IMG/VR virus record: IMGVR_UViG_3300037247_001786
Coordinates: 288,001 to 352,000 of that record
DNA from: a virus
Lineage: Duplodnaviria; Caudoviricetes
Length of the DNA: 64,000 bases
Strand: one strand, 5' to 3'
Positions 1 through 64,000 of the stretch are shown here, in pieces (the stretch's first letter is position 1; each line of letters starts with the position of its first letter). Both the position numbers and the translations under genes were made by a program. The notes beneath the pieces were generated by a model, which searched no databases, had not been told where the DNA came from, and was given only the letters and a program-made list of their open reading frames with translations.

Positions 1-61
1 ATACCGTTTTGGCGAACAAAAATACAAAATAACAGTAGAAAAAATTGAAGGAGTTTAAGTA

Positions 62-1814: not shown

Positions 1815-2016
1815 AGAGAAAATATTTTATGGCAAGTGATTCAAGAGAAATACAAATTATGAGGGCTATATGTTGGGAAAGAGCTAAGGGGGAGTTGGGA
1901 GCTTTGGTCGAGACATATTGGGAAGAGGGTAACTGCAAAAAGATGCAAGAAGAAATTAATAAATTTATAGACATAGTTGAAAATGACGAACTTTTTACAT
2001 AGGGAGAAATATTTAG

Positions 2017-2553: not shown

Positions 2554-3049
2554 TAGTTATGTTGTTGAAAGAACATGGATGACGGAATCTGGATTAAAAG
2601 CTTGTTGTGTTCTTTGTAGAGGAACACATAGATGCGGATATGTTGGAGTTAATGAAGATAATTTTCTTTATGGAGTAAAATGTAGCCAATCTATAGAAAA
2701 GCTTAAAGACGCATATCATAAAGCAATGGATATAAATATGGATGATAATAAAAGAAATAGTATTTCTATCTTATCTAATTCCATGAAAGATGAGGAAGAG
2801 AGGTACAGCCCAGAGATGGCATTTAATGTTCATGGGGGATTAACATTTTCTAACGGAGGAGGGGACAATGACTACCCTATACCTGGAGATACTTGGTGGT
2901 TTGGTTTCGATTGTGCTCATTTAGGAGATGCGAATATAGATGGTTCAGGATATTGCGAAGACGATGCTGTTGTTAGAAGTTTTGACTACGTCGTCGATGA
3001 GTGCGAAAACTTAGCTCAACAAATTGCATTAGTAACAAAAAATAAATAG
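2546..3049 (+). CDS. Conserved phage hypothetical protein
   Basis: CGYVG, HGGLTF and WWFGFDCAH motifs typical of a widespread phage family. Confidence 0.6.
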   Translation: MNSSYVVERTWMTESGLKACCVLCRGTHRCGYVGVNEDNFLYGVKCSQSIEKLKDAYHKAMDINMDDNKRNSISILSNSMKDEEERYSPEMAFNVHGGLTFSNGGGDNDYPIPGDTWWFGFDCAHLGDANIDGSGYCEDDAVVRSFDYVVDECENLAQQIALVTKNK

Positions 3050-3065
3050 GAGATTTTTTACTGTA

Positions 3066-4097: not shown

Positions 4098-4284
4098 ACT
4101 ATGAAAGGCGATAAGCATAAACCAAAAGGTACTTTTGCTAGATGGGTAGACGCATTTTGCGATGGGCTATATGCACCAAAAGAACCACATTATAGAGTTC
4201 CATCTATGACTGATGGCAAAAAGTATACAAGAAGATGGAGACGAAGAAAAGAAAAGTTAGAATTAAAAGACGAGAAAAATAAAT

Positions 4285-4509
4285 ATGAAGAATAACTGGA
4301 CAGAAGAGTTTGAAAATATGATAGTAGAGGATGAGTGTCCTCGATGCAGTTGGTATCCTGATTGCGATGATTGCATTATTGCATATAGTCCTCAAAGATA
4401 CTCCCACAGTCTATCTATGTTGTCCTCATTTCCCCAATATACTTGGACCGAGATATATGATTGTCCAGAATGTTCTACTAAATTTAAAATGGGGGCTGAA
4501 TCATGTTAG
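4285..4509 (+). CDS. Small Cys-rich (zinc-binding) hypothetical protein
   Basis: CPRC, CDDC, CPEC motifs. Confidence 0.5.
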   Translation: MKNNWTEEFENMIVEDECPRCSWYPDCDDCIIAYSPQRYSHSLSMLSSFPQYTWTEIYDCPECSTKFKMGAESC

Positions 4510-5039
4510 AAAAAAAATATGAAGTTAAAAGCAGATTAAAAGTATGTGGTTGTTGTCAGTCATTTGATAAGGATACTGGAGAATATTTTCCTCCCAAAAA
4601 ATTTGAAGAACATAAAGATTATTTAGAATGTACCAATCCAGAATGTTTAGAAGTTTTTAGTACCATACCTATGTTTGAATTTGCTTATTGTTGTCCAGAT
4701 TGCGGTTTTGATTGTCCAGTAGAGGACGAACATTATCAAGTTAGAGACGATGGCTCTTGGAACATATTTCCATATGAACTATTAAATTATAAACCAGTGA
4801 TTACTGAATCTAAAGAAACAGACCCTAACATTATCCTAATAGAAGAAATGGATAAAATTATGAAGGTCAAATTACCTCCTATGCCAGACGATCTAAAAGA
4901 ACTTGAAATTATTGAAGGTAAAGATATTTATCCAAAATGTACAGACGAGTATCTTGATTATGAGGGAAATTATAGTTGGACAGAAACTCATTACTGTCCT
5001 CACTGTAAAAAAGAATATGATTTTTTTAATGGGAATTAA
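4503..5039 (+). CDS. Cys-rich hypothetical protein
   Basis: Several CxxC motifs; stop/start overlap with neighbours. Confidence 0.5.
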   Translation: MLEKKYEVKSRLKVCGCCQSFDKDTGEYFPPKKFEEHKDYLECTNPECLEVFSTIPMFEFAYCCPDCGFDCPVEDEHYQVRDDGSWNIFPYELLNYKPVITESKETDPNIILIEEMDKIMKVKLPPMPDDLKELEIIEGKDIYPKCTDEYLDYEGNYSWTETHYCPHCKKEYDFFNGN

Positions 5040-5478
5040 AATATGGATCATCAATTACCAAGTTGGCAATGTCAATGTTGCGGGAAAAATTATTATGAAG
5101 ACCTAAAAACAATGGGTTATAAATGTACAAAGTGCGGAGCTGAATATAAATTTGGTTATACAGTGACGCATGTCGATAAAGATGGAGTAGAGGAAGTATT
5201 ACATAGGAAAGAGATAAAATGATAAAAACTAAGACAGTAACTTATGAGCATAACGTAGTTGTTTCTAAGATTTGCGATAAATGTAAAAAAGAATATGATG
5301 CAGAAAAGGATAGAGATGAATGTCAGGAGTTTCATGCGGTCAGTTTCGTAGGAGGATATGGATCTATCTTCGGTGACGGTACGGGAATTCATTGCGACTT
5401 ATGCCAGCATTGTCTCCTCGATATTATAAAAGATTATATGAGAATAAGTGAGTATAAATATTATTAGGATTTATATAA

Positions 5479-5694
5479 ATGAAGTATTGTGTAAAATTAG
5501 GTAATTGTTTAGATGAGTTGAAGAATATACCAGATGGGTCTTGTCGATGTTGCGTCACTTCTCCACCATATTGGGGTTTAAGACAATATCTATTCGATGG
5601 TGCGGTCATACTAGATAACAAGTTAAGCGATGAGGAAAAAGAGATTATCGAAAAAGAGTTAGAGGACTATGGAATCAAACCCAAATCATCTTAA
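5479..5694 (+). CDS. N-terminal part of a split DNA methyltransferase
   Basis: GNCLDELKNIPDGSCRCCVTSPPYWGLRQY matches the N-terminus of the 3066 MTase, then 30+ unrelated residues and TAA. Confidence 0.85.
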   Translation: MKYCVKLGNCLDELKNIPDGSCRCCVTSPPYWGLRQYLFDGAVILDNKLSDEEKEIIEKELEDYGIKPKSS

Positions 5695-5730
5695 TAAAGA
5701 TTGGATATATGAACATAAGGATTTTATAAA

Positions 5731-6675
5731 ATGAAAATATGGGATATAAAAGAGATACCTGAACATCTTAAAAAACATTTTGCTCCAGCACCTGAACTTG
5801 GAATGGAAGATACTCCCCAAGAATTTGTTCAAAATATGGTTAAAGTTTTTCGCGAAGTAAAAAGGATATTAACACCAGATGGAACTTTTTGGTTGAATAT
5901 CGGAGATAGCTATGTATCTGCTCCAACTGGTTCAAGAGGTAAATGTACTGGTAAGGATCAAGGCTTTGGAGAGAACCATAAACATTCCGGTGCTGCTTTG
6001 AAGAGAAGAGATAAAAGACTTAAAGGGTTATCAGAAAAGAATCTTATAGGAGTTCCTTGGAGATTAGCCTTGGCTCTTCAGGACGATGGCTGGATATTGA
6101 GACAAGATATTATTTGGGCTAAACCTAATCCCATGCCGGAATCGGTAAAAGATAGATGTACTAAATCTCATGAATATATTTTTCTTCTTACCAAACAAAA
6201 AAAGTATTTTTATGACCATGAAGCTATTTTTGAAAAAGCTGCTTTTGACGGAAGGAAAGATACTAAATTAAAAGGTTCTCAAAAATATGAGAGTGGAGAG
6301 TTTCTTCCTGGAAAGAATGAGAATACTTTTCACTCCCAAGCTCATGAGAGATGGCCTAATATGAAGGATGGAGTCAGAATGAGAAATAAGCGTGACGTAT
6401 GGCATATAAATACTGCACAGTTTAAAGGTTCTCATTTCGCTGTTATGCCGATAGAGTTAGCTCAGACTTGTATTAAGGCTGGATCAGAAAAGGGAGATTG
6501 GATACTAGATCCATTTTCAGGAGCTGCTACCACTGGCGTCGCCGCATTAGGAATAGATAGAAATTATATTGGTACAGAACTTAGTCCTGACTTTAGAGAG
6601 ATAAGTTTAGAGAGATTAAATGGGGTAGACCCAATTTTTTCGGAAGAAGTAGAAGGAGTAGAAAATGATACCTAA
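5731..6675 (+). CDS. C-terminal part of a split DNA methyltransferase
   Basis: ELGMEDTPQEFV...HFAVMP...DPFSGAATTG; lacks SPPY, which lies in 5479-5694; AAGGA RBS upstream. Confidence 0.88.
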   Translation: MKIWDIKEIPEHLKKHFAPAPELGMEDTPQEFVQNMVKVFREVKRILTPDGTFWLNIGDSYVSAPTGSRGKCTGKDQGFGENHKHSGAALKRRDKRLKGLSEKNLIGVPWRLALALQDDGWILRQDIIWAKPNPMPESVKDRCTKSHEYIFLLTKQKKYFYDHEAIFEKAAFDGRKDTKLKGSQKYESGEFLPGKNENTFHSQAHERWPNMKDGVRMRNKRDVWHINTAQFKGSHFAVMPIELAQTCIKAGSEKGDWILDPFSGAATTGVAALGIDRNYIGTELSPDFREISLERLNGVDPIFSEEVEGVENDT

Positions 6676-7618
6676 AATAGATAAATACAGAGGAGCGATG
6701 TTAGGGTTGGCTGTAGGCGATGCATTAGGAGTATCTCTTGAGTTTATGCCTCCTGGAAGTTTCGTAGAAGTAACAGAGATGTTGGGAGGAGGTCCATTTA
6801 ATCTTAAACCAGGAGAATGGACAGATGACACTTCTATGGCTCTATGTCTTGCCTCTAGTTTAATAGAATGCGACAAGTTTGATGCTCATGATCAAATGAC
6901 AAGGTATTTGGATTGGAGAGATAACGGTTACATGAGTTCTAGAGGAGGAGGAAAACCATGTGTCGATATCGGAAATACTACAACTGGTGCTATATCTAAT
7001 TTTGAGGAAACGGGTGATCCATTTTCTGGTCCAAAAGAATCTCATACATCAGGTAATGGATCTATAATGAGACTTGTCCCTATTCCTTTGTATTATGGAG
7101 GTAGCCCTATTGATACTTTTGCTTTTGCAGGCGAAAGCTCAATAACAACTCATGGTTCAAAGGAGTGTAAGGATGCTTGTCGATATATGGCATTAATAAT
7201 TAATGGAGCAATTAATGGATTAGTGAAAGAAGACTTGTTATCATCAGATTATATGAAAGATATCGATTTGGATCCTCAAATAAAAGATATTGCAAATGGT
7301 TCTTTCAAAGAGAAAGAGCCTCCAGAAATAAAGGGAACAGGATATGTTGTAGAAAGTTTAGAAGCGGCTTTATGGGCTTTCTATAAGAATGATACTTTTG
7401 AAGATGGTTTAATAGCGGCAGTTAATCTTGGCGATGACGCTGATACAACAGGAGCTGTTTTTGGGCAGATAGCAGGAGCCTATTACGGAGTTGATTTTAT
7501 ACCTGAAAGATGGATAGAGAAGATAGTGGACGCTGACGGAATAATGTATATAGCTGAAACTTTATATGATATGGCGATAGAAAGATATGGAGAAGAGTAT
7601 GGGAACGACAAAGAATGA
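6665..7618 (+). CDS. ADP-ribosylglycohydrolase (DraG/ARH family)
   Basis: GLAVGDALG, WTDDTSM, GNGSIMR, GDDADTTGAVFGQIAGAYYG. Confidence 0.93.
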   Translation: MIPKIDKYRGAMLGLAVGDALGVSLEFMPPGSFVEVTEMLGGGPFNLKPGEWTDDTSMALCLASSLIECDKFDAHDQMTRYLDWRDNGYMSSRGGGKPCVDIGNTTTGAISNFEETGDPFSGPKESHTSGNGSIMRLVPIPLYYGGSPIDTFAFAGESSITTHGSKECKDACRYMALIINGAINGLVKEDLLSSDYMKDIDLDPQIKDIANGSFKEKEPPEIKGTGYVVESLEAALWAFYKNDTFEDGLIAAVNLGDDADTTGAVFGQIAGAYYGVDFIPERWIEKIVDADGIMYIAETLYDMAIERYGEEYGNDKE

Positions 7619-8504
7619 TATTAGAAATTGGTTAAAAGAAAAAGACAAATCAGAAGTAAGCCATGTATTGATAGTATGCGATACTTTCGATCATTCGGAC
7701 TATCCTGTTCAAGTGCCTATTGGTAAACATGTCGATGATATTATAAGTCAATATCATGGATCGGATATGCAAAAAGTAATGGAAGTTTATAATCTAAATA
7801 TGGATATAGAAGAACAGTTAAACGAGCATAGAGCTTGGAATAACCAGTCAGCTCCAAAGAAGTTGATCACTTTGAAAGATGCAATAGAGCAGAGGACAAA
7901 GAAAAGAGCTGACGAGATGAGAGATATTCCTGCGTATGATAAGTTCGGTCGTCCATGTCGAGATTTGTATTTTATGAATTTAGCGTTTGAGGTAGCATGG
8001 AAATCTATCGACCCTAATACGAAACACGGTTGTGTAGCGGTCGATAAGAGAGGAGGAGTTATAACTACTGGTTACAATGGACCTCCTCAAGGTTGTAATG
8101 ATGAAAAAATTCCCTTGACAGCTCCAGAGAAATATCGGTTTTTAGAACATTCGGAAAGGAATGTTATAGAAATTTCTGGAGCAACAGGAAGAGCCTTAGA
8201 AGGAAGCACCTTCTATGTGACAGGTTTGCCTTGTTATGAATGTTTAAGGGCGATAATGGGAGCGAGAGTTAGTAGAATCATCTACGGACCTCTTAATTCT
8301 ATTATGTGTATGGAGGAAGGGTATTTTGATGATTATGAAATATTTTTAGAAGGACATCCTTTAGTTGTAGAAAGATTTAGATACGATGAAGAACTATTTG
8401 CTAGAAATAACGAGGCAAAAAAAGCTGTAGAAAATAAACCACCCGTGAATATAGTTAAAGAGTTTAATCTAGGAAATTTTTATGGCAGAGAGACCAATAG
8501 ATAG
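7587..8504 (+). CDS. dCMP deaminase with an extra N-terminal domain
   Basis: SIDPNTKHGCV, TGYNG, HSERN, PCYEC zinc-deaminase motifs; about 110-aa N-terminal extension. Confidence 0.85.
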   Translation: MEKSMGTTKNDIRNWLKEKDKSEVSHVLIVCDTFDHSDYPVQVPIGKHVDDIISQYHGSDMQKVMEVYNLNMDIEEQLNEHRAWNNQSAPKKLITLKDAIEQRTKKRADEMRDIPAYDKFGRPCRDLYFMNLAFEVAWKSIDPNTKHGCVAVDKRGGVITTGYNGPPQGCNDEKIPLTAPEKYRFLEHSERNVIEISGATGRALEGSTFYVTGLPCYECLRAIMGARVSRIIYGPLNSIMCMEEGYFDDYEIFLEGHPLVVERFRYDEELFARNNEAKKAVENKPPVNIVKEFNLGNFYGRETNR

Positions 8505-9255
8505 GAGAGTTAGTCAATATTTTGAAGGAAAAATTACAGAAGAAAAATTAAATAAGCAAATAGAAGAATACCTAAAAGATGGTATCGCAAGCGGCAAGTT
8601 CACTGATAAAATAATGGCTAGACTTGACCGCAGGAAAGATGCCAACGGTAAGAAAAAAGGCAGAACGTATGCTAGATTCTTCATTGAAATATCCGAAGGC
8701 ATCCGAAAGGAACATGCTATATTTTTAAAATGGATAGAGCATATGGAGAAGATTGGCTATGAAATGAAGTGGGAAAAATATGGTACAGATGCTATTGGGT
8801 TAGCTTTTGTAGAGGTCAAAGATGATAGACCTGATTATCTGGTATCTATAAATAATTCTCCCTTTTTTGTAGTTGATGCTAAGACTTGCCCAATAGAAAC
8901 AAAGAATACTTTTAAAACAGGTGACTTAAGGCATTATGAAAAATATAATGCCAGCATGGTGGTATGTATGGGTAAAATTGGATTAGATAATCAAGAACTG
9001 AAATCATTTTCATTTTATGGACCGCTGGCCATTAGACATCTATTGAAGTTAAAAAGTACAACCTATCCAGAATTTGCTCCAAACAAACAAGCTGTTAGAG
9101 CTTCTTATAAAAAAACGATGAAAAGCAATAGGGCTCAAGTTTCTTTTGAAGAGTTATTAAAGGATGGAACTATGGAGATGGTTAAGGTAACTGAAAAGGA
9201 TCCAGAATTTAGAGGTCCTTTAAAAAGAATTATTGATGGTCACTATTTATTTTAA
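8482..9255 (+). CDS. Putative PD-(D/E)xK nuclease (restriction endonuclease-like)
   Basis: E...RPDY-x9-VDAK pattern; directly upstream of an MTase. Confidence 0.45.
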   Translation: MAERPIDRRVSQYFEGKITEEKLNKQIEEYLKDGIASGKFTDKIMARLDRRKDANGKKKGRTYARFFIEISEGIRKEHAIFLKWIEHMEKIGYEMKWEKYGTDAIGLAFVEVKDDRPDYLVSINNSPFFVVDAKTCPIETKNTFKTGDLRHYEKYNASMVVCMGKIGLDNQELKSFSFYGPLAIRHLLKLKSTTYPEFAPNKQAVRASYKKTMKSNRAQVSFEELLKDGTMEMVKVTEKDPEFRGPLKRIIDGHYLF

Positions 9256-9266
9256 GAAGAAGTTTT

Positions 9267-9989
9267 ATGATAAACACAATTATACATGGCGATTGTAGGA
9301 AGATTTTTCCAGAGATACTAAAGGAGCATAAAGTTTCTTTAGTAGCCTCTGATCCTCCTTACAATATTTGTTTTGGCAAATATGAAGATAAGGGAGGGAA
9401 GGGGTATAAGGACAATTTACCTGATGATGAATACATAGAATTGTTATCTACATTTAAGGGGTGCCCTTCTGCTATTATACATTACCCAGAAGAGATGATG
9501 AAATACGTTGTCCCTGCTTTGGGAGTCCCTGAAGAAGTTCTAGCTTGGTGCTATCCATCTAACATAGGAAAAAAGTTTAGATTGATTAATATCTATGGCA
9601 AAAAACCTAAATTTTCAAAAGTAAGACGACCATATAAAAATCTAAATGATAAGAGGATTCAAGAACGTATCCGTAATGGTAGTAAAGGTGCTCCTTTGTA
9701 TGATTGGTTTGATGACATAAATATAGTCAAAAATGTCAGTAAGGAGAAGACAATTCACCCTTGCCCGATACCTATAGCCCTAATGGAAAGGATTATTTTA
9801 CTACTGACAGATGAGGGAGATTTAGTTATAGACCCGTTTTCTGGTTCAGGAACAACGGCTTTAGCCTGTATTAGATTAAAAAGACAATATATCGGTATAG
9901 AGATGTCAAAAAAGTATTGTGATTTAGCTAATGAGCGTATTAAATTGGAGAAAGAGAAGGTTGATATTTTTAAAGGACTTTCTACTTGA
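9267..9989 (+). CDS. DNA amino-methyltransferase (beta class)
   Basis: SDPPYN, HPCPIP, DPFSGSGTT. Confidence 0.92.
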   Translation: MINTIIHGDCRKIFPEILKEHKVSLVASDPPYNICFGKYEDKGGKGYKDNLPDDEYIELLSTFKGCPSAIIHYPEEMMKYVVPALGVPEEVLAWCYPSNIGKKFRLINIYGKKPKFSKVRRPYKNLNDKRIQERIRNGSKGAPLYDWFDDINIVKNVSKEKTIHPCPIPIALMERIILLLTDEGDLVIDPFSGSGTTALACIRLKRQYIGIEMSKKYCDLANERIKLEKEKVDIFKGLST

Positions 9990-54134: not shown

Positions 54135-55113
54135 AGATATTGGTTTCTATACCTTATATGAAGAGAGGTGTAAATATGCTAATGCGACAAGCCCTATGAT
54201 TAGAGCGGAACTTATTATAACTAGTTTTTGTAATTTTAATTGTCCCTACTGCCGAGGTATGAGAGAAGAATGTAGAGGCGACATGTCATTATTCCAAGCT
54301 CTTCGAACCATTTATTTTTGGACAGATGATAACCTCAAAAACATTCGCTTCTCAGGAGGAGAGCCAACTCTTCATAAAGGTTTAATGGATATGGTTCGCT
54401 ATGCTAAAGAAAGAGGAGTAGAAAGAATTGCTCTCTCCACAAATGGTAGTGCGAAAACAGAATTATATGATGAACTTGTCGAAGCTGGCGTTAACGATTT
54501 CTCGATTTCTTTAGATGCCTGCTGCTCAACTTATGCAGATAAAATGGCTGGCGTTGACGGTCAGTTCCAAAAAATTATTGATAATATTAAGTATCTTTCA
54601 GAGAAGACTTATGTAACTGTCGGCGTTGTGTTTACCGAAGAAACTGTTGATAGTATTGTAGAGGTTATACAATTGGCTAATGACTTGGGCGTATCTGATA
54701 TTCGTATCATCTCTGCTGCTCAAGAGAGTGAAACATATTTCAAATTTTCAAAGTCAGTTTCTGTCTTCGGCACAGGTTTCAGAAAGAGATATCCTATATT
54801 AGCGTATAGGTTAGAAAATATCGAAGAAAATGTTCCTGTCAGAGGTTTGATAGAGAGCGATTCTCATAGATGCGGTTTGATGACAGATGACAGTATGGTT
54901 GCTGGTAAGTGGCATTATCCTTGCATCATACATTTCAGAGAGGGAGGAGACCCTATCGGAGAAGTTGGTCCTAATATGAGAAAAGAGAGAATAGATTGGT
55001 TAAAGACACATGATACCCACTCTGATCCTATCTGCAAAAAAAATTGTTTGGATGTATGCGTAGCATATAATAACAGATTCGCAAAATATTCTGGCATGAG
55101 AAAGAATATTTAA
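54109..55113 (+). CDS. Radical SAM enzyme
   Basis: CNFNCPYC, FSGGEPT, STNG, ISLD; C-terminal Cys cluster. Confidence 0.9.
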   Translation: MKKSKIKLEDIGFYTLYEERCKYANATSPMIRAELIITSFCNFNCPYCRGMREECRGDMSLFQALRTIYFWTDDNLKNIRFSGGEPTLHKGLMDMVRYAKERGVERIALSTNGSAKTELYDELVEAGVNDFSISLDACCSTYADKMAGVDGQFQKIIDNIKYLSEKTYVTVGVVFTEETVDSIVEVIQLANDLGVSDIRIISAAQESETYFKFSKSVSVFGTGFRKRYPILAYRLENIEENVPVRGLIESDSHRCGLMTDDSMVAGKWHYPCIIHFREGGDPIGEVGPNMRKERIDWLKTHDTHSDPICKKNCLDVCVAYNNRFAKYSGMRKNI

Positions 55114-55114
55114 C

Positions 55115-55143
55115 TTGAAAGTGATTTTTAAATATGATATAGT
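55115..55143 (+). promoter_or_regulatory. Sigma70-like promoter upstream of a small TM ORF and the tRNA
   Basis: TTGAAAGTGATT...TGn TATAGT, 17-nt spacer. Confidence 0.65.
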
Positions 55144-55373
55144 ATTGTTTTAAGATAAAAGGAGATAAATATGTTATATATTTTAGTTGGTATCGTTTGG
55201 GGAATATTCTCTGTAAAAATGCAGCAAAAGTTCCATCCTACTTGCAGCGATAAAAGAGATTTAGCCATTAACTTTATTGTTAATGGGGTGATATGGCCTA
55301 TCAGTATGGTTGTCGCCGCTTATCGTTATTTCACTAAAACTGGTTGGGCAAAGAATTTATAGTATTGTAATAA

Positions 55374-55530
55374 CGGCTCGTACCTCAGAGGACAGAGGGT
55401 CTAGCTCATGTAGTCATGTCCATGCCTAATTTCGAAATACGGCTAAGGAGAAGACGGAGTCATTCTAGAATAAGACTTTAATACGTGAGAACTACTAGAA
55501 AGTCGCAGTGTTCGAATCCTGCCGGGCCGA
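55374..55530 (+). tRNA. tRNA with CAU anticodon (Met/Ile2 type) interrupted by an ~83-nt insert in the anticodon loop
   Basis: Acceptor CGGCUCG/CGGGCCG+A; D-arm CCUC/GAGG; anticodon stem UCUAG(55400-55404)/CUAGA(55495-55499); CU-CAU at 55405-55409; T-loop UUCGAAU. Confidence 0.75.
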
Positions 55531-55769
55531 TTTTTTTGGAAAGGAAAGTGTTATGGCTAGTTTTATATGTTTATTAATTATAGCGGGATTAATTTATTGT
55601 TTCGTAAATAAGGACAACGAAATAGTAGAGTGCATAGTCGCTGCAATCGTAACTATCTTTTTACTATTGGTAGCTTTGATCATTGCTTATTTTCCTTATA
55701 TTCTTATCGCATGTGCAGTAGTCCTCCTTGCTAAAGGTTGTTAGCAAAGAGGAAGAAAGGTAATGTCGT

Positions 55770-56633
55770 ATGAAGATACAAACTTTTTCAATAGTAATAG
55801 GTGATAAAAGATGTAATGCTAGATGCCCTTATTGCGTTTCTAAAATGACGGGCGATGAAGGGCTTGAGTGCGGTTCTCAAGGCATCAATTACAGAAACCT
55901 TAAGAAGGCTTGTGAGTTCGCAAAGATGTCAGGAGTTAGTACTATACTGCTAACTGGTAAAGGAGAGCCTTTACTCCATATAGATCAAATCACAGAATAT
56001 CTCCGTTTAATAGATGGATATAATTTCCCATTTATCGAATTACAAACCAATGGGATAAAACTGTCTGAACCCGTAACTCAATCCACACTTGGACTTTGGT
56101 ATAGCCTCGGATTAACTACTGTATCTCTCTCTTGTGTTCATTGGGACGATAGCTATAATCAAAGAATTTTCGGCAAAAATTATGGTTCTTTAAAAGAATA
56201 TGTTGACATATTACATGATAATTTTCTTTCTGTAAGATTAAGTTGCGTAATGTGTAAAGGTTATATTCATAATCTTCAAATGGTTCAAGCTTTTGCCAGA
56301 ACATGTAAGAGATGGGGAGTTGAGCAGTTTACTGTACGTCCAGTTAATTATGCTACTGGAGGTAACGAGAAGATAGAAAACTGGGTCAGAGACCATTTTG
56401 TAACTGAAGGTATGATGAATAGCATTGAGAGATTTCTTGATAGGAGTAAAGAATCTACTCTATTATTAGAACTCGCTCATGGAGCGAAAGTGTATGATTA
56501 TATGGGTCAGAACCTCTCCTTAAGTTCTTGCTTGACTAGTAGTCCTAATCCAGATGATATAAGACAACTAATATTTTTTCCAGACGGGCACTTGAAATAT
56601 TCTTGGACCGAGGCTGGAGCAATTTTATTTTAG
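55770..56633 (+). CDS. Radical SAM enzyme
   Basis: CNARCPYC, LTGKGEP, QTNG. Confidence 0.88.
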   Translation: MKIQTFSIVIGDKRCNARCPYCVSKMTGDEGLECGSQGINYRNLKKACEFAKMSGVSTILLTGKGEPLLHIDQITEYLRLIDGYNFPFIELQTNGIKLSEPVTQSTLGLWYSLGLTTVSLSCVHWDDSYNQRIFGKNYGSLKEYVDILHDNFLSVRLSCVMCKGYIHNLQMVQAFARTCKRWGVEQFTVRPVNYATGGNEKIENWVRDHFVTEGMMNSIERFLDRSKESTLLLELAHGAKVYDYMGQNLSLSSCLTSSPNPDDIRQLIFFPDGHLKYSWTEAGAILF

Positions 56634-56855
56634 AAAGGTTTTACAATGTTATTTACGATAGCCATGTCAGCAGTCGGTTTGATAATCGTTCTATCAATAT
56701 TATGTCAATCCAACGATTTTTTAGATTGGGTTGTGAGGCTTGATGATCCTGAGTGGTCAGAATTATATAAGGAGAAACTACCTGATATCATCAGAGCGAG
56801 AGATAGTATAAGAAACCGCAAAGAAGAACTAAAATGGGGTAAATAGATTTTTTAC

Positions 56856-56884
56856 TTGAAAGTGTTTTAGTTTTCCCCTAAAAT
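56856..56884 (+). promoter_or_regulatory. Sigma70-like promoter
   Basis: TTGAAAGTGTTT...TAAAAT, 17-nt spacer. Confidence 0.6.
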
Positions 56885-57885
56885 AGGAAATAGTTATTTA
56901 ATAGGATAAAAAATATGACAATAGTATGTAAATATTTTATAATGTTTGTCATCGTCTCTACTCTATCCCTTGTGGATAAGTTTAAGGATGACCCTCATAT
57001 GGATAGTTTCGAGAAATTCATATCAGTATTAGTTTCTTTACTGTACGGATTATTATGGCCTATTACGATATGGGTAAGTGCCGTTCAATGGATAGTTTCA
57101 AAAGAGATTCCTGCTTGGGCAGAAGTTCTAATGAACGCCTTAAAATCTATTACTAAATTTATAACGAATAAGTTGCCGGAGTAAGATATGAAAATCGAAG
57201 AAAATTTACAACTTTTCTGGGATGATATAAGATTTAAAAATGGATTATTTGGTTTAATCGTAGGGTCTATTTTTCTCATTATGATAACCGCTTTTGTCGC
57301 CGGTACTACTTTTTTTATTATAACGTCTAACATTGATTTCTTGGGGTTATCTGCTGGTATCGGACTTGTTTTCTTTATGATATCTTCGTATGGTCAAAAT
57401 AGAAAGATACAGGAGTTAGAAAATACTATCAAAGAGCAGAAAAACTCGCACCGGGGAACCGATAGAAGATTTAGCGTGGATAGAAAAGTTAGTGTGAAGA
57501 ATATAGACGCACAGATGAAGGAGATGAATGAAGAAGATAGGTAAAAAGATATTAAGTTTTTATGCTGAATGCTCTCAAGAGGTCTCGGAAAAAAGAAAGA
57601 TAAGGAAACAAAAAAGAGAGGCAAAGGCGGAGCAAGAAAGACTCTTACAAGAAAGAAGAGAGTCCGCTTTTTGCCCTCATTGTAATACTCAACATACTTC
57701 TTCTTATTACTATTCTCATAGTACTAAGAAAGAAGATATCGAGATAAGAGAAGAACATGTCCACCGTCATATAAATTTTTTAAAGTGTTCTGAATGTAAA
57801 TGTTTATTTGGAGTAGAGGGTAGGTATTGCTTTGTGCATAGTCTTGATCTATCGAGAACGACTTTTAAACTAGAGGATAGGGAAA

Positions 57886-58248
57886 ATGTTTAACTGGTTT
57901 AAGAAAAAAGATAATAGAGAAAAAATAGTTCTTAATGTAGTAGATTTTTCTGTGTCACCTGGAGCTAGGTATATCGCTGATGGAGATTTCTCAGGTGAGT
58001 TATTTAGAAAAAATTATCTATATCCGAAATTAGCTGAGGCAATGTGTAACGATAAGATTTTAGTCGTTTGTTTAGATGGAGGTTATGGATATGGTGTCGC
58101 ATTTTTAGAAGAAGCTTTTGGCGGATTAGTAAGGGTTGAGGGAGAATCAGCCGTAGAGATAAAAAATCACCTTGAAATAATATCCGATGAAGAGCCTAAT
58201 CTTATTAATGAAGTTATGAATTATTTAGATGAAGCAAAATTAATATAA
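57886..58248 (+). CDS. STAS-like (DUF4325-type) protein
   Basis: FSVSPGARY..DGDFSGELFR, LDGGYGYGVAFLEEAFGGLVR. Confidence 0.75.
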   Translation: MFNWFKKKDNREKIVLNVVDFSVSPGARYIADGDFSGELFRKNYLYPKLAEAMCNDKILVVCLDGGYGYGVAFLEEAFGGLVRVEGESAVEIKNHLEIISDEEPNLINEVMNYLDEAKLI

Positions 58249-58705
58249 GGACAAATAGCATGGTAGAAATACTTATAGAAATGACAGAGGAACAAAAGGC
58301 TTCTTTAGATGAAATTGCTAAAGAACTCGGGACAACAGATGTCGAAACTTTTCAGGCATCATTGGACATACTAAAACATATGATGGCAGAAACGAAAAAT
58401 GGAGATGTGAGGGCGGTAAGAGAGATGAGTGAACTTATAAATAATATAAAAAAGGCAAAGAAAAATGTTTAACTGGTTGCGTAAGAGAAGAGAAATAAAA
58501 AAGATTAAAGCTATAAGAGCGAATCTCGATAAAGCAGTTGGTGAATTGGAAACGATACGAGATCGAACAATTATCGGAGAATCCCTTGAAGAATTTCATA
58601 TCACAGAAACGATTGTTAATCTCTATAAAGTAATCGAGGAAATAGATAAAGAAGTAGATGACAGGACGAGAGTAAGGAAGTCCATCTTCCAGGAGAAAGA
58701 CTGTA

Positions 58706-59161
58706 ATGAACATGAAATTTAACAATATGTTCCAAAAAGCATTAGATACTATGAAGAACGGTATCGTCAATATCACTAAAGATATGCAATCTGAAGAAAA
58801 AGTTAAAACTATCAAGATAAGGAAAAGTAATAATATGAATGTTAGTACCGTAACTATAAATGGTTCTCATATATTTCAAACTTCTAATTGTATTCAAATT
58901 AATATAGAAGGAGACGTTCACTCGGTAGACTCTCAAGGCTCTGTAACTTGTGAGAATGTTACTGGTGATGTTAATACTCAAGGATCAGTTACTTGTCACG
59001 ATGTTGGAGGCGAGGTGGACACTCAAGGCTCTGTAAGGTGCGAGAATGTTAAAGGGTCTATTAGTACTATGGGGTCGGTAAGGGCAAATGACGTTTACGG
59101 AGATATAGATACAATGGGAACGGTTACAGTTAATAGGAGAAAACAACATGGTATGTCTTAG
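58706..59161 (+). CDS. Beta-helix repeat protein
   Basis: Five tandem ~16-aa repeats V.GDV(D/N)(T/S)QGSV.C. Confidence 0.7.
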   Translation: MNMKFNNMFQKALDTMKNGIVNITKDMQSEEKVKTIKIRKSNNMNVSTVTINGSHIFQTSNCIQINIEGDVHSVDSQGSVTCENVTGDVNTQGSVTCHDVGGEVDTQGSVRCENVKGSISTMGSVRANDVYGDIDTMGTVTVNRRKQHGMS

Positions 59162-61582
59162 TACCTTAGAAGAAAATCGTAGAAAAAGTGATATGGCTAT
59201 GAAGAAAGATAGTATAGTGGTCAATCCCTCTGTCCTAGAACAAAAACTGGGAGAGATATTCTACAAGTTATCAGTTAAAGAAATTATGGCTATTATTAAA
59301 AAATGTGATATGGTAGAACCAGAGATAGAGCCGACTGTTATTTTAAATAATAGCTCGAAAGGAATGAAAGAGCTAATAAAAATGATAGAGGCAGGCGAAC
59401 CACATGATTGGAAAAGATTACGCTCTTGTGATCCAAGGGCGATGCGTGGAGGAGAAGCTAATTGGAGATGTTCCAAATGTGACCAAGAGATAACTGCTTC
59501 TTACGCCTGTCTGCCCGTTAAAGGATGTAAAAAATAATTTAGTAATCACAGTATATTAATTTAAGGAAATAAAATGAAAAAGTTTTTAGTAATTTTACTA
59601 TTGTTGGTATGTATTAACTCAGCCCAAGCCGATAAGTGGGTTGTATTGAAGAAATTTAAGGATGTTGTACCTGTCAGTATCTCTTATGGCAGCAAAGCGT
59701 ATACCATTACATTAGAGTCAGGAAGATGGTTTGTATGTGCTGATTCATATGCGGATGCCTCTGTCGAGAAGATGATATTAGGTTCAACTGGTACATATTA
59801 TTGGAAGGTTTCGGCTGATGGCAAATTTATTCGCGAAGATGATACTGTTAAATGGGTAGAAAATAAGGAATTAACAAAAAAGGGAAAACAACTTAAGAAG
59901 ATAGAAGATACTTCAGAGAATAAAAAAGTATTCTCTTCTAGAAAAATTAAAGAGACTCCCTCAACTTGGGTAGAAGTATTTAGAAAATTGCCTCCAAAAG
60001 ACACTGTTGTTCTGGTTAAATATACCAATGGGGTTATCACTACCGCATATGTTAATTTTAAAAATGAGTGGAAACTTACAACAGATAAAGGTAGGATTAG
60101 CGGTGGAGTGACACTGAAGTCCGTCTCTGAGTGGAAAACAATAAATTAATAACTAAGGAAATGTAGCCATGTGTCTGAAAACTAAATTATCAATAAAAGA
60201 ACAAAATAAAATAACAAAAGATATAGGCAAAGAAGGGATAGAAGTCTATAAGGTGGTAGGCATCGGAGTAAGGGGGTATCATCCTCTTTGCATCAGGAAT
60301 AAAGGATCATATAAAGAAGGCATAGATGAGGCTGATGGAGGTTCAATATATGATTTCGGCATAGTTTCCTATAAAGCAGGGTTTCACTTCTATCTGACTA
60401 AAAAAGATGCAGACAAGGCTCTAGTAGAAGTAAACCATTGTTTCGTGTTGAACCAACTTGCAGAGTTTGTCTTCCAAGGAGAATATAAAGTTATTAAATG
60501 CATCGTTAAAAAATCATGGATAACAACAATCGGAGAGGATAATATGTCGGGTATATTTGCGACTACTCTCGTAGCCAAAAAAGCAATTTTTCCTAAATTC
60601 AGAGAATAGATATGGAAGTAGATAATAAATGGAATACCAAAGATTATAATTATTGCGAAGAACATAACATGTTTTATAGAAAATATTGTTTAGGCTGTGC
60701 CTTATGCCCATATGACGAAACAGAGAAACAAAATGAAAACAATAGCACAAAAAGCAGAGGAATATATAAGGAGCATTAACGGCACCGGAGTTATGTGGGG
60801 AGATGGAAGCCTGTTACATAACATCGCTGAGTATTGCGGCATACCTCACGAAGGACTTAAAACAGAAGATAGGATATTAAATGCCATTGATAGGGGACAC
60901 AAAGGAGTGTTCAAAAAAAGTTTTGTAAGGATACATGTTGGGATGCATAATCGGGAAACTCTAGTTAGGAATTTTTCATTAATAGAAGAAGATGAGTAAA
61001 GAAAAAATATATACTGAAATACAGATAGTAAATGCGAGGGAAACTGAACTTGCAAAGATCGCTATATCTTATTTCTCACCGAGGTTGTGGACATGTGATA
61101 TTGATGTAGATGATTGGAATATCGCTATGATGATAAGAGATATAGTGATATGTGCTTATGGTTATGAGGAATTCGAATTTGGACTAAATCAAGTTTTGGG
61201 AGTAGACTACAAATTCCCCCATAAGGGAACCTCTCAAGATTATATTAAAGCTTCATGCATAGTAAGATTAAAAAAAGGAAAGATCAATGAGAATATGCCC
61301 TAAATGTAAGTCTAGAAAAGTAATCACTATCGATTCAGATAATGATTATTGCGAGAAATGTCAAGAATGGTTTCCCGCAGTAAAAGTATTTTGCGATGAT
61401 TGCGAAAAACCTCTTGGTACTCCGCATTTGCATAAGTGCGATCCCAGTTATAAAGATATCAAAGATGAGATAGAAAAGCTAAAATTGTTTCAAGATTATT
61501 CTTATTATGTTGGAACAGAAATAACGTGTGAGCGTATGCCTCTTAAATTTTCCCCTTGGTTAAGTGAAAGAAAGAAAAACAA

Positions 61583-62050
61583 ATGAAAAAAATAATGTTT
61601 GTAGCAATAATGATGTTGGTTGTATCGGTAAGTAATGCTTCATTTACTTATTCACTCACTACTAATAAAGAAACGTACAGTACTGATGAATCTATTTTTA
61701 TAGATTTTTCGGTAACTAACGAAACAGAAGAAGTTCTTATCTGGCCAAGAACATGGGGAACTCTAGGAGCAAAGATAATAAATACTGCTACAGATGAGGT
61801 CGTATGGTCGTCGCCGCGACCCGAAGTACATAGTATGATTTTTCTGCCGAATAAACTTCTCCCAGGAAAAACTTTTGAAATAGATTGGACAATAGATACA
61901 GGACTTCCTCATGGGCTTTATGATTTGGAAGGAACGTTTTTCGGATTAGACTATACTGAATATAGTGCTATAACCGTAATTCCAGAACCCAGTACATTAA
62001 TATTACTATCAATAGGAATTATGACGATCAGAAGGAGAAAAAGATGTTAA
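61583..62050 (+). CDS. PEP-CTERM sorting-domain protein with an Ig-like domain
   Basis: Signal peptide; C-terminus IPEPSTLILLSIGIMTIRRRKRC. Confidence 0.88.
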   Translation: MKKIMFVAIMMLVVSVSNASFTYSLTTNKETYSTDESIFIDFSVTNETEEVLIWPRTWGTLGAKIINTATDEVVWSSPRPEVHSMIFLPNKLLPGKTFEIDWTIDTGLPHGLYDLEGTFFGLDYTEYSAITVIPEPSTLILLSIGIMTIRRRKRC

Positions 62051-63339
62051 AAATACCAGAATCACAATTACAAAAAGTTATGTTCTATCTTTATGAGTGG
62101 ATAGAGGAAAATGAAGTTAGCAGAGCTTCCTTGCTCATAGAAGATGATAGATTAAGATTTGTAGCTGGAACGAAAGACAATGTTTACGATGATGCCTTTG
62201 AAGATGGTTTGTCGAAATTGGATTGGAATATAGCCCAGGATGAGGGTATATCAAAAATAGAGATGTCTGTGCAAAGTACTCCAAAAGATATCTTTGATGG
62301 TCTTGTTGAATCTTTTAATCCAATAGCTATAATCGAATTTGACGACATCGAGGGTAAATAAATGTTTGGAAGCGGATACGAAGCACGCATAAATAGAAAA
62401 GTACAAGAGCAAGCCAAAAGTCTAGACTACCGTAACGAGGAACTTGAATCAGAAATTAAAAATTTAAGACTCGTTATGCTTCAAGATAATAGTAATCTTG
62501 TTGATCTAGGAAGAAATGAAGTTCTAGATATAATAGCATCAGCCGCTTCTCCAGAGAATCACAATCGAAATATATCTATAAGTACTAGGAGACTACTAAG
62601 TACACCAGAAGGAGATCGTGTATATCGAGAAATAAATAAGCTACTAGAAGAAAAAAAAGAAAAGAGTGGAAGATTGCAGAAAGCCGAGCGGACATATCAA
62701 GAAATAATTAAATTATCGGAAAAAAGAAAAAATGGACAAACCTGATTGTTACAAATGCATACATAGAGGAAATACACCAGGAGACGCACATAGCTGCTGT
62801 CGGCATCCGAAAGTAGGAGATGACCCATTTGCTGCTATATTAACTATGCTCTCCACAGGGGGAGCAGTGGCTAATGAACTTAATATAAAAGGTAATGAAT
62901 ATGGGGTTCAAAGCGGTTGGTTTTTATGGCCAGCCAATTTCGATCCTGTATGGCTTGAAAGTTGTGATGGTTTCGAAGGAAATGATAAATGAAGGCGTAC
63001 AAAACATTTATAGTGAAAAGAGACGGAGTCTTAAGATCTATTTTTCATTTTTTTGATTTCCACGATGGAGAGAATGTATATAAAGAAAAAACCAGGGGAT
63101 TTCTTTCCTGGGCGACAAAAAAACAAGCGGAAAGGTATAGAGAAACACTAGTAGCTATTCATTTTTCTGAAGTGATAGTAAAAGAAATCGAGATAAAAAA
63201 AGAAGATATTATCAAAGAAGAAAAAGAAAGATTATATACAAAAGACGGTCAGAAGAAATTAAAAATCAAGAATCCATATGGAATAGCTATATACTCTACA
63301 AAGATATATATATAATAACTGTCTTCTAAATAAAAATAC

Positions 63340-63367
63340 TTGAAAGTGTTTTCTAAACTGGTATAAT
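63340..63367 (+). promoter_or_regulatory. Sigma70-like promoter
   Basis: TTGAAAGTGTTT...TGn TATAAT, 16-nt spacer. Confidence 0.7.
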
Positions 63368-64000
63368 AGATATCATGAATCTAAAAGATATTAAAGATGA
63401 TATAGATAAAATCGTTCATAACTACAAAGATAAGTGGATGAATTTTGTCTTTGAAGATGATCCAGAGACAGCAGTGGCTTTTAAAGAAAAACAGATATAC
63501 AAAGCTATGTATATTATGTCTAAAATTAACGCCTACTATTCTTTCATCAAAAACCCTATTGTGACCACTAGACAAGAGGGATTCGATTTCATATTTACCT
63601 GGGAATTCAAGAAAAGCAATCGTGTTAAATTAGAATTAGTTATTCCATGGGAAGGGAATATGTTATATATGGCACATTTTATTCACGGTATGGACAGGTC
63701 GGAAAATGAATATTTTGACAAAAGTTTTTCATCCATAGGTCAGGAGATTTCGGATATTGGAGTAATGTTAAAAGAAGCGACAATAGAGGAGACTATAAAT
63801 GGCAGTAAATAATGACTTATTACTATATATTGAGCCGAAAACAGACCCATCTGTGATGCCAGTAATAGATGCTCTTACTTGTTCAATGGTTCATGCTTTG
63901 AGAAAAGCGAAAGAGGGAAGTGTTAATTACTGGACTGAACCTCCATATACTTTCGAAGAAGGTAACGGATATAAAGGTTGGCATAGGTGTTCCTGTGGAG

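What the first reader, a model, noticed from the sequence alone, without database searches (positions are those of the whole stretch)
61583..62050. Phage gene carrying a PEP-CTERM exosortase signal
Seen: signal peptide, Ig-like beta domain, then PEP, a TM helix and an Arg cluster at the extreme C-terminus. Known: PEP-CTERM proteins are processed by host exosortase and surface-displayed in EPS-producing diderm bacteria such as Planctomycetota, Verrucomicrobiota and many Proteobacteria. Inference: the phage uses host exosortase to decorate the infected cell surface (receptor masking, superinfection exclusion). It also limits the host to exosortase-positive lineages; the FmdB-type gene would be compatible with a Planctomycetota host, which is only a guess.
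Basis: partly seen in the sequence, partly recalled or inferred. Interest (0 to 1): 0.7.

Follow-up and report, generated by a model that had tools for sequence, protein, structure and literature searches.

The report
Giant-phage exosortase-tagged protease-inhibitor-like protein
A complete 461-kb marine-sediment phage carries a small exported protein whose tail is a genuine PEP-CTERM sorting tag, which only a host enzyme (exosortase) can read, and whose body belongs to a protease-inhibitor fold that bacteria often encode beside secreted subtilisin-type proteases, so the phage probably plants a protease-binding protein on the envelope of the cell it infects.

Summary
Window 61583-62050 (+) encodes 155 aa: a signal peptide, a beta-sandwich and a PEP / membrane-helix / RRRKR tail. 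The tail passes the curated cut-offs (TIGR02595 25.5 bits against 16; PF07589 22.9 against 20.7). It is the only such tail in a complete 460,978-bp phage genome that has no exosortase.

The gene is under selection. A related phage fragment holds a 68%-identical copy (dN/dS about 0.23) in which all three PEP codons differ only synonymously.

The body is not a generic Ig domain. It is an IPI/BsuPI-fold domain, and its best structural match is B. subtilis IPI (3isy, Z 13.1). It belongs to an unnamed family of small proteins with the same three parts. Five of eleven bacterial and metagenomic copies lie directly upstream of a secreted S8 subtilase. A controlled complex model of one such pair passed (score 0.85, best control 0.00) and puts a variable loop on the catalytic triad.

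Two independent clues point to a Phycisphaerae (Planctomycetota) host, a lineage rich in exosortase and PEP-CTERM.

Receptor masking or superinfection exclusion has no evidence. Envelope-anchored subtilase binding fits better but is inferred for the phage copy.

This scan has already noted phage-borne PEP-CTERM proteins on many other genomes. I found no dedicated paper.

The parts
61583..62050 (+). Whole gene, 155 codons plus TAA. GC 34.8%, the same as the phage.
   Evidence: A 68%-identical homologue (P0002) lies in a related phage fragment, dN/dS 0.21/0.92.
61583..61642 (+). Sec-type signal peptide, residues 1-20 (KK, hydrophobic core, SNA|S)
   Evidence: Direct reading; hydrophobic core mean KD 2.3; N-terminal helix in the models. 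No SignalP-type tool was available.
61643..61972 (+). IPI/BsuPI-fold beta-sandwich, residues 21-130
   Evidence: PF12690 scores 18.0 bits, below the cut-off of 22.9. Homologue P0002 scores 26.4 and passes. The family profile matches 3isy at E 2.4e-6. 3isy_A is the top match of 48,161 chains: Z 13.1, rmsd 2.5, 110 aligned. The Atlas structure hits are BsuPI clusters.
61808..61852 (+). Loop, residues 76-90 (SSPRPEVHSMIFLPN). It aligns with the loop of homologue P0016 that is modelled in the subtilase active site.
   Evidence: pLDDT is lowest here (block 81-90 = 60). The loop is hypervariable across the family but 10 of 12 identical between the two phage copies.
61979..62047 (+). PEP-CTERM sorting domain, residues 133-155: PEP, membrane helix, RRRKR
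   Evidence: PEP is invariant in all 15 aligned family members. The three PEP codons differ synonymously between the two phage copies.
61287..61586 (+). Upstream 99-aa Cys-rich (zinc-ribbon-like) gene. Its stop overlaps the start codon of the PEP-CTERM gene (ATGA).
62044..62361 (+). Downstream 105-aa ORFan. Its ATG overlaps the end of the PEP-CTERM gene. The gene sits inside a tightly packed, co-directional run of small accessory genes (about 59574-63315).

Best explanation
This is a real, selectively maintained accessory gene of a complete 461-kb phage.

Proposed pathway:
1. The product is exported by the host Sec pathway through its signal peptide.
2. It is held in the inner membrane by the C-terminal helix.
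3. Because the phage has no exosortase, it is handed to the host's exosortase, which recognises the PEP motif. This releases or attaches the roughly 110-residue IPI/BsuPI-fold domain in the envelope or slime layer of the infected cell.

Proposed activity: by homology with a family of small PEP-CTERM proteins that bacteria often encode directly upstream of secreted S8 subtilases, the domain most likely binds, and probably blocks, a subtilisin-type protease. It would do so by laying a variable loop (residues about 76-90) into the active-site cleft. The likely target is a secreted protease of the host or its neighbours. The likely benefit is protection of phage-made envelope proteins or released virions, or silencing of a protease-dependent host response.

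The host is most likely a marine-sediment member of the Phycisphaerae (Planctomycetota).

Shown:
- the gene, the tag, the fold and purifying selection;
- absence of a phage exosortase;
- the family link to subtilases;
- exosortase richness of the candidate host lineage.

Inferred:
- processing by exosortase (odds about 0.7);
- subtilase binding by the phage copy itself (about 0.45);
- the host assignment (about 0.55);
- the benefit to the phage (speculative).
For: Tag:
- It passes both curated cut-offs and is unique in the genome.
- PEP is invariant in 15 family members that share only 19-29% identity otherwise.
- Between the two phage copies, all three PEP codons changed synonymously, helix replacements are hydrophobic-for-hydrophobic, and R changes to K.

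Selection and residence:
- dN/dS is 0.21/0.92.
- Gene GC equals phage GC at 34.8%, against 44-64% for bacterial homologues.

No phage exosortase: PF09721 gives nothing, and TIGR04178 gives only a sub-threshold 15-bit fragment with stops.

Fold:
- The family profile matches 3isy at E 2.4e-6.
- 3isy is the top structural match: Z 13.1, rmsd 2.5, 110 of 117 aligned, about 2 Z above the next row.

Link to subtilases:
- An S8 gene lies immediately downstream of family members in L005, L099, L106, L107 and L113.
- These genomes hold only 1-5 S8 genes each.

Complex model of P0016(23-134) with its neighbour's S8 domain:
- Score 0.85, best of 3 controls 0.00. This mark was reached by 58 of 80 solved complexes and 2 of 110 mismatched pairs; the counts hold only roughly because my own alignment was used.
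- The runs agree in at least 87% of contacts, and the partner pLDDT is at least 91.
- Partner residues 79-82 contact catalytic H218 and the G393-S395 segment, and catalytic D162 is among the interface residues.
- The only IPI-family entry found in the PDB by sequence is the free protein 3isy, so I found no solved like complex.

Host:
- The FN3 module (51% GC in a 34% GC genome) is 82-86% identical in protein, and up to 79% in DNA, to Planctomycetota/Phycisphaerae MAGs.
- The only named family member is from Sedimentisphaerales.
- At E<=1e-12, full-length matches (domain plus tail) occur in 4 of 151 Phycisphaerae. There are none in 151 Verrucomicrobiota, none in 151 genomes of a 'Deltaproteobacteria' MAG's phylum, and only tail-less domains in 4 of 151 Acidobacteriota.
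- Exosortase is present in 4 of 5 candidate MAGs, with 3-36 PEP-CTERM tails each.
Against: - No experiment shows export, cleavage or surface location. Exosortase processing is itself largely inferred in the literature (Haft 2006, PMC1569441).
- The phage copy has no subtilase neighbour, and its loop sequence differs from that of the modelled homologue.
- P0001 alone misses the Pfam BsuPI cut-off (18.0 against 22.9).
- Six of eleven bacterial and metagenomic family contexts show no adjacent S8. L113 and L107 are probably the same orthologous locus.
- The IPI authors themselves doubt that IPI is a true inhibitor rather than a general protein binder (PMC3901451).
- The complex model tested a 25%-identical bacterial homologue, not the phage protein. 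Many canonical subtilisin-inhibitor complexes of other families are solved, so general memory of that binding mode cannot be excluded.
- The host clues are indirect. The FN3 module family also occurs in Verrucomicrobiota, Kiritimatiellota and others at 60-79% identity.
- No CRISPR or prophage link was obtained.
Confidence: 0.55

Rival explanations
1. The exosortase-sorted protein simply coats the infected cell and masks a receptor or excludes superinfecting phages. The beta-sandwich acts as a passive shield or adhesin and has nothing to do with proteases.
For: The same export and sorting evidence applies. IPI's nearest structural neighbours, such as RbmA, are protein-protein or matrix-binding modules (PMC3901451). 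The phage also carries a type IV pilin-like gene with an N-terminal methylation motif, which suggests wider envelope tampering.
Against: Nothing links the protein to a receptor. The family is repeatedly paired with S8 subtilases, and the homologue's loop is modelled in the catalytic cleft. Both point to a specific partner rather than passive coating.
Confidence: 0.2
2. The tail works only as a C-terminal membrane anchor. The domain stays tethered to the outer face of the inner membrane, and exosortase plays no part.
For: The helix plus basic cluster would anchor a protein by itself. No processing has been shown. The phage has a single such protein rather than the usual multi-copy set.
Against: PEP is invariant in all 15 family members and is kept through synonymous change in the phage pair. 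A plain anchor would not require this. The candidate host lineage has exosortase and many such tails.
Confidence: 0.12
3. The target is the phage's own S8 subtilase (genome 93,783-94,619, 278 aa). The pair would work like B. subtilis IPI and Isp1, with the inhibitor restraining the phage protease.
For: The phage does encode an S8 subtilase (98 bits). IPI was first described as the inhibitor of an intracellular subtilisin (PMC3901451).
Against: The phage subtilase has no signal peptide, whereas the IPI-like protein has one, so they should be in different compartments. The genes lie 255 kb apart. The phage S8 is only about 22% identical to the S8 type found beside family members.
Confidence: 0.08
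4. It is a virion-decoration Ig-like protein (Hoc-like), and the terminal hydrophobic segments are incidental.
For: Ig-like domains are common on phage particles (general knowledge). The fold is an Ig-like sandwich.
Against: A signal peptide and a PEP-CTERM tail are incompatible with cytoplasmic virion assembly. The gene lies among small accessory ORFans, about 225-280 kb from the structural genes identified at genome 71-127 kb. No PHROG matches it.
Confidence: 0.03

Closest known systems
Bacterial PEP-CTERM / exosortase (EpsH, XrtA) substrates (Haft et al. 2006, PMC1569441; TIGR02595, PF07589)
   Same: Signal peptide, variable body, and PEP + membrane helix + basic cluster at the extreme C-terminus, scoring above both curated cut-offs. 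The sediment habitat is also typical.
   Different: It is encoded by a virus that has no exosortase and only this one tagged protein. It is translationally coupled inside a run of small phage genes, not a single-gene operon behind a large regulatory region. The body has an assignable fold.
B. subtilis intracellular proteinase inhibitor IPI/BsuPI (PDB 3isy; Pfam PF12690; Rigden et al. 2013, PMC3901451)
   Same: The same unusual Ig-like fold (Z 13.1, rmsd 2.5, 110 residues) with profile-level sequence similarity (E 2.4e-6). As with many IPI homologues, the protein carries a signal peptide and a cell-surface attachment device.
   Different: Only about 16% identical. The attachment device is PEP-CTERM, not SLH domains or none. 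That paper found no IPI gene next to a subtilisin gene, whereas this sub-family is often directly upstream of one. Inhibition is untested here and was questioned even for IPI.
Unnamed family of small signal-peptide + IPI-like + PEP-CTERM proteins assembled here (alignment A3; e.g. the Sedimentisphaerales MAG protein P0027, and metagenomic P0016, P0022, P0029, P0035)
   Same: The same three-part architecture, the same invariant Tyr32 and PEP, and similar size (155-190 aa).
   Different: The two phage copies are the shortest and lack the N-terminal extension of most bacterial members. They have phage-like 35% GC, no subtilase neighbour and their own conserved loop sequence.
Phage-borne PEP-CTERM proteins noted earlier in this scan on other genomes (e.g. 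e1-3507778, e1-3299303, e1-5325584); one passing mention of a PEP-CTERM domain in virus-like IME1 elements (bioRxiv 10.64898/2026.09.15.751708)
   Same: A virus with no exosortase carries a secreted protein with the exosortase tag.
   Different: Those are mostly 40-50-kb phages with cargo of unknown fold. Here the carrier is a 461-kb phage and the cargo has an identifiable protease-inhibitor fold with a candidate partner class. I did not re-test those notes.

Membership tests
PEP-CTERM sorting domain (TIGR02595 / PF07589) | Score above the curated HMM cut-off | tested here: met
   TIGR02595 25.5 bits against 16; PF07589 22.9 against 20.7. 29.1 bits in the six-frame genome search.
PEP-CTERM sorting domain (TIGR02595 / PF07589) | Near-invariant Pro-Glu-Pro, then a transmembrane helix, then a basic cluster, at the extreme C-terminus | tested here: met
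   Residues 134-136 are PEP, 137-149 are hydrophobic (mean KD 2.15) and 150-154 are RRRKR; the protein ends at 155. A helix spans 136-154 in the model.
PEP-CTERM sorting domain (TIGR02595 / PF07589) | N-terminal signal peptide on the same protein | tested here: met
   By reading and hydrophobicity only: KK, a 14-residue core, SNA|S. No dedicated predictor was available.
PEP-CTERM sorting domain (TIGR02595 / PF07589) | An EpsH-type exosortase present in the cell that makes the protein | tested here: inconclusive
   None in the phage genome. Present at 175-190 bits in 4 of 5 candidate host-lineage MAGs and in the genome that carries family member P0034. The host itself is not proven.
PEP-CTERM sorting domain (TIGR02595 / PF07589) | Cleavage or attachment by exosortase | not testable with these tools
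   Needs expression in wild type against an exosortase mutant.
IPI / BsuPI (Pfam PF12690) | Score above Pfam's gathering cut-off | tested here: not met
   P0001 scores 18.0 bits against 22.9. Its 68%-identical phage homologue P0002 scores 26.4, and P0024 and P0015 score 27.2 and 27.6, so all three pass. I therefore call it a divergent relative, not a model-certified member.
IPI / BsuPI (Pfam PF12690) | Sequence-profile similarity to the solved founder 3isy | tested here: met
   Profile of A2 against PDB sequences: 3isy_A E 2.4e-6, covering 90 of 120 residues; next hit E 0.005.
IPI / BsuPI (Pfam PF12690) | The variant Ig-like fold of IPI | tested here: met
   3isy_A is the top match among 48,161 representative chains: Z 13.1, rmsd 2.5, 110 aligned. 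The Atlas structure search is led by BsuPI clusters at TM 0.65. The first, shallower model gave only generic Fn3/MG-like Foldseek hits.
IPI / BsuPI (Pfam PF12690) | Binds or inhibits a subtilisin-type protease | not testable with these tools
   Indirect only. Gene neighbourhood of homologues. A controlled complex model of homologue P0016 with its neighbouring S8: 0.85 against best control 0.00. The phage protein itself was not modelled with a protease.
Small signal-peptide + IPI-like + PEP-CTERM family (alignment A3, unnamed) | Three-part architecture with invariant Tyr and PEP | tested here: met
   Alignment of 15 members: Y32, P134, E135 and P136 are invariant; E36, N46, G111 and G145 are nearly so.
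Small signal-peptide + IPI-like + PEP-CTERM family (alignment A3, unnamed) | S8 subtilase gene immediately downstream (frequent, not universal) | tested here: not met
   The phage neighbours are ORFans. The related phage fragment L003 has no S8 either. The phage's only S8 lies 255 kb away.

The most novel reading that the evidence does not exclude
A giant phage hijacks the host's exosortase pathway to install a dedicated subtilase inhibitor in the envelope or slime layer of the infected Planctomycetota cell. This disarms secreted proteases that would otherwise destroy phage envelope proteins or newly released virions, or that drive a protease-dependent defence. It would be the first phage cargo of the PEP-CTERM route with a defined biochemical activity. 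It would also define an undescribed bacterial module: an exosortase-anchored IPI-type inhibitor paired with a secreted subtilase.
Probability: 0.3. Interest if true: 0.75.

Novelty: new variant of a known kind. Interest (0 to 1): 0.6.

Why it matters
- PEP-CTERM/exosortase sorting is widespread in sediment, soil and biofilm bacteria, but it remains poorly understood and most of its cargo has no assignable function. A virus-borne cargo that depends on the host enzyme is a compact natural test case for what the pathway does with a protein.
- The tag also serves as a host-range marker for uncultured phages.
- The cargo here has a recognisable fold and a candidate partner class, so the hypothesis can be tested directly in vitro.
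- The bacterial relatives suggest an undescribed pairing of exosortase-anchored IPI-type proteins with secreted subtilases. This bears on the old question of whether IPI proteins are real protease inhibitors.
- It gives one of the few concrete host clues for a complete 461-kb marine-sediment phage.

Tried and rejected
- Megablast of window 55000-64000 against GenBank phages gave no match.
- Relatives of the protein were sought in IMG/VR and in species-representative genomes with patterns from the two phage copies. None was found. A wider alignment had no stretch conserved enough to search with.
- The 200-aa neighbour gene found no viral relatives. The 86-aa Cys-rich neighbour found 12 distant phage loci, but none holds a PEP-CTERM or IPI-like gene within 10 kb.
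- PHROGs has no family for the protein, and its ten neighbours are ORFans.
- The promoter and terminator scan showed no enrichment over shuffles.
- The first AF2 model (7 sequences, pLDDT 70.6) gave only generic Fn3/MG-like Foldseek hits. The 15-sequence model resolved the fold.
- Long 'proteins' with many internal PEP-CTERM tails in the exhaustive search match the tail only and say nothing about the domain.
- A2 and A3 matches in the five candidate host MAGs are tail-only, so no close homologue lies there.
- Sequencing runs: no RNA holder is listed, so expression could not be examined.
- A survey of PEP-CTERM tails across viral databases could not be run.
- Literature searches found no paper on phage-encoded PEP-CTERM proteins or on PEP-CTERM-anchored protease inhibitors.

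Full report
**1. What is there**

Window 61583..62050 (+) is a 155-codon ORF.
- Its ATG overlaps the stop of the upstream 99-aa Cys-rich gene (ATGA).
- Its last codons overlap the ATG of the downstream 105-aa gene.
- It therefore sits inside a tightly packed, co-directional run of small genes (about 59574-63315) that match no Pfam or PHROG family with a known function.

The product has three parts:
- a Sec-type signal peptide (KK, a 14-residue hydrophobic core with mean Kyte-Doolittle 2.3, then SNA|S);
- an all-beta body (residues 21-130);
- a tail reading IPEPSTLILLSIGIMTIRRRKRC.

The tail passes both curated models: TIGR02595 25.5 bits against 16, and PF07589 22.9 against 20.7.

Chance is not a serious explanation. 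A six-frame TIGR02595 scan of the whole genome finds this one site. A PEP-helix-basic regex hits 1 of 1757 open frames.

**2. The carrier is a phage**

- The window is part of a single 460,978-bp IMG/VR virus record with direct terminal repeats, 100% complete by CheckV.
- GC is 34%, and there are 36 tRNAs.
- It has a portal protein (E 1e-49), a head maturation protease and a tape measure protein.
- The source is a marine sediment metagenome.
- Short near-identical contigs (0-2 differences in 151-229 nt) covering parts of the gene occur in marine metagenomes of a second study.
- The genome has no exosortase. PF09721 gives nothing, and TIGR04178 gives only a 15-bit fragment with stops.

**3. The gene is maintained by selection**

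- One 68%-identical homologue (P0002) lies on a 2.5-kb contig. Its other genes are 51-70% identical to phage genes nearby but in a different order, so it is a related phage and the region is variable.
- dN/dS is 0.21/0.92.
- In the tail, all three PEP codons differ synonymously. Helix replacements are L/M and I/L, and R changes to K.
- Gene GC (34.8%, GC3 24%) equals that of the phage, whereas bacterial homologues sit in DNA of 44-64% GC. The gene is an old resident, not a recent passenger.

**4. The body is an IPI/BsuPI-fold domain**

- P0001 alone is just below Pfam's cut-off for PF12690 (18.0 against 22.9). P0002, P0024 and P0015 pass.
- A 7-sequence profile hits the B. subtilis intracellular proteinase inhibitor 3isy at E 2.4e-6.
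- With a 15-sequence alignment the AF2 model reaches pLDDT 83. An exhaustive structural comparison with 48,161 representative chains puts 3isy_A first: Z 13.1, rmsd 2.5, 110 of 117 residues. This is about 2 Z above the alpha-2-macroglobulin MG domain, Spo0M and RbmA.
- The Atlas structure search agrees.
- Rigden et al. (PMC3901451) describe IPI as an unusual Ig-like fold. Its homologues often carry signal peptides and cell-surface devices, and its status as a true inhibitor is plausible but unproven.

**5. A family, and its partner**

Exhaustive and profile searches recover about 18 small proteins (155-230 aa) with the same three-part architecture. Y32 and PEP are invariant at 19-29% overall identity.

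Gene contexts of family members:

| Context | Locus | S8 subtilase immediately downstream? |
|---|---|---|
| P0016 | L005 | yes (with signal peptide and fervidolysin-type prodomain) |
| P0022 | L099 | yes |
| P0035 | L106 | yes (a cluster of several family members and several S8 genes) |
| P0029 | L107 | yes |
| Phycisphaerae genome G139 | L113 | yes |
| Six other contexts | L103, L109, L110, L114, L115, L116 | none adjacent |

- L113 and L107 are probably orthologous loci, because their S8 genes are 50% identical.
- These genomes hold only 1-5 S8 genes each, so four or five adjacencies in eleven is far from chance.
- In G083 the single S8 gene is likewise preceded by a PEP-CTERM protein with a partial family match.
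- In G001, one of five S8-matching genes, 49% identical to that of L005, follows a small signal-peptide + PEP-CTERM gene of another kind.

- The score was 0.85 in each of three runs, and the best of three controls was 0.00.
- That mark was reached by 58 of 80 solved complexes and 2 of 110 mismatched pairs. The counts are only rough because my own alignment was used.
- The runs share at least 87% of their contacts, and the partner pLDDT is at least 91.
- The lowest-error contacts put partner residues 79-82 on catalytic His218 and the Gly393-Ser395 segment. Catalytic Asp162 and residues 308-314, which include the AAGN motif Asn311, are among the interface residues. That is a substrate-like loop in the cleft.
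- By sequence, the only IPI-family entry in the PDB is the free protein, so I found no solved like complex. Many canonical subtilisin-inhibitor complexes of other families exist, however, and the model supports binding without showing it.
- The corresponding loop in the phage protein (residues about 76-90) has the lowest confidence in the domain. It is hypervariable across the family, yet 10 of 12 identical between the two phage copies.

**6. Host**

An earlier first-reader note pointed to a GC-rich FN3 module elsewhere in the genome. I confirmed it: genome 273193-273474, 51% GC.
- Its best matches among 185,579 species genomes are marine-sediment Planctomycetota/Phycisphaerae MAGs: 82-86% protein identity and up to 79% DNA identity.
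- Planctomycetota dominate the 61 hits. Other PVC lineages and a few others follow at lower identity.

Independently, the only named member of the protein family is from a Sedimentisphaerales MAG (order in Phycisphaerae).

Family matches at E<=1e-12 in even samples of 151 genomes:

| Group sampled | Genomes with a match | Kind of match |
|---|---|---|
| Phycisphaerae | 4 of 151 | full length, domain plus tail |
| Verrucomicrobiota | 0 of 151 | none |
| Phylum of a 'Deltaproteobacteria' MAG | 0 of 151 | none |
| Acidobacteriota | 4 of 151 | domain only, no tail |

- Four of the five best FN3-hit MAGs carry 1-3 exosortase genes (175-190 bits), and all carry 3-36 PEP-CTERM tails. The 14 control genomes gave none at that threshold.
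- The lineage fits, but no CRISPR or prophage link was obtained. I put the Phycisphaerae host at about 0.55.

**7. Mechanism and rivals**

The most likely course is as follows.
- The protein is exported by Sec.
- It is retained by the C-terminal helix.
- The host exosortase recognises the PEP motif.
- The IPI-like domain is placed in the envelope or matrix, where it binds a secreted subtilase.

The gene, tag, fold, selection, family-subtilase link and host-lineage exosortase are shown. Processing, the activity of the phage copy and its benefit are inferred.

The rivals:
- Passive coating, receptor masking or exclusion remains possible. It has no evidence of its own.
- A plain membrane anchor is disfavoured by the strict conservation of PEP.
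- The phage's own S8 (278 aa, no signal peptide) is an unlikely target because of compartment and distance, but it was not modelled.
- A virion-decoration role conflicts with the export signals and the gene's position.

**8. Novelty**

- PEP-CTERM cargo and IPI domains are both known.
- I found no paper on phage-encoded PEP-CTERM proteins. There is one passing mention in virus-like IME1 elements.
- I found none on PEP-CTERM-anchored IPI proteins paired with subtilases. The IPI paper reports no such gene proximity.
- This scan has already noted phage-borne PEP-CTERM proteins in many other genomes, and I did not re-test those notes. What is new here is the giant-phage carrier, the identifiable cargo fold and a testable partner class.

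Noticed in passing
G000 genome 356428-356832 (L006:16428-16832), 4.4 kb beyond the window's end: A 134-aa type IV pilin-like gene with a canonical N-terminal methylation motif (PF07963 32.7 bits; PHROG 'pilin'). This is another phage protein that would need host envelope machinery.
   Followed up: partly
G000 genome 93783-94619 (L086:1363-2199): The phage encodes its own 278-aa S8 subtilase (98 bits) with no signal peptide. Its role, and any relation to the IPI-like protein, are untested.
   Followed up: partly
window 59574-60149: A 191-aa ORF with a clear signal peptide (MKKFLVILLLLVCINSAQA) and no family match, 1.4 kb upstream of the PEP-CTERM gene in the same gene run. It is a second exported accessory protein.
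   Followed up: no
G000 genome 271954-274344 (L007:954-3344): A 796-aa protein with one 51%-GC FN3 module, 82-86% identical to repeats of Planctomycetota MAG proteins, followed by about nine YIYLAN...GLRAYTF repeats. The module looks host-derived and is the best host clue in the genome.
   Followed up: yes
L106 (JGI 3300044799 contig, 1-9987): A 10-kb metagenomic contig that interleaves at least two IPI-like PEP-CTERM genes, further unassigned small ORFs and four S8 subtilase or fervidolysin-prodomain genes (some look fragmented). It looks like a diversified inhibitor/protease array.
   Followed up: partly
L112:1704-3136 (G001, Phycisphaerae MAG CS2-K091, contig C16): A small signal-peptide gene and a PEP-CTERM-ending frame overlap in different frames (probably one frameshifted gene of another family). 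They lie directly upstream of an S8 subtilase 49% identical to that of L005. The 'small PEP-CTERM protein then subtilase' layout may be broader than the IPI-like family.
   Followed up: partly
Proteins P0003, P0005, P0007, P0008, P0010, P0012, P0013, P0020 of the representative library: Predicted 'proteins' of 800-2500 aa with 2-7 complete PEP-CTERM tails, most of them internal. They look like tandem PEP-CTERM genes read through their stop codons by gene callers.
   Followed up: no
L003 against window 61583-64000: In the related phage fragment the PEP-CTERM gene is followed directly by the homologue of the gene at window 63799 onwards, and the homologue of 62732-62992 lies further on. Gene order in this accessory region is therefore shuffled between close relatives.
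   Followed up: partly
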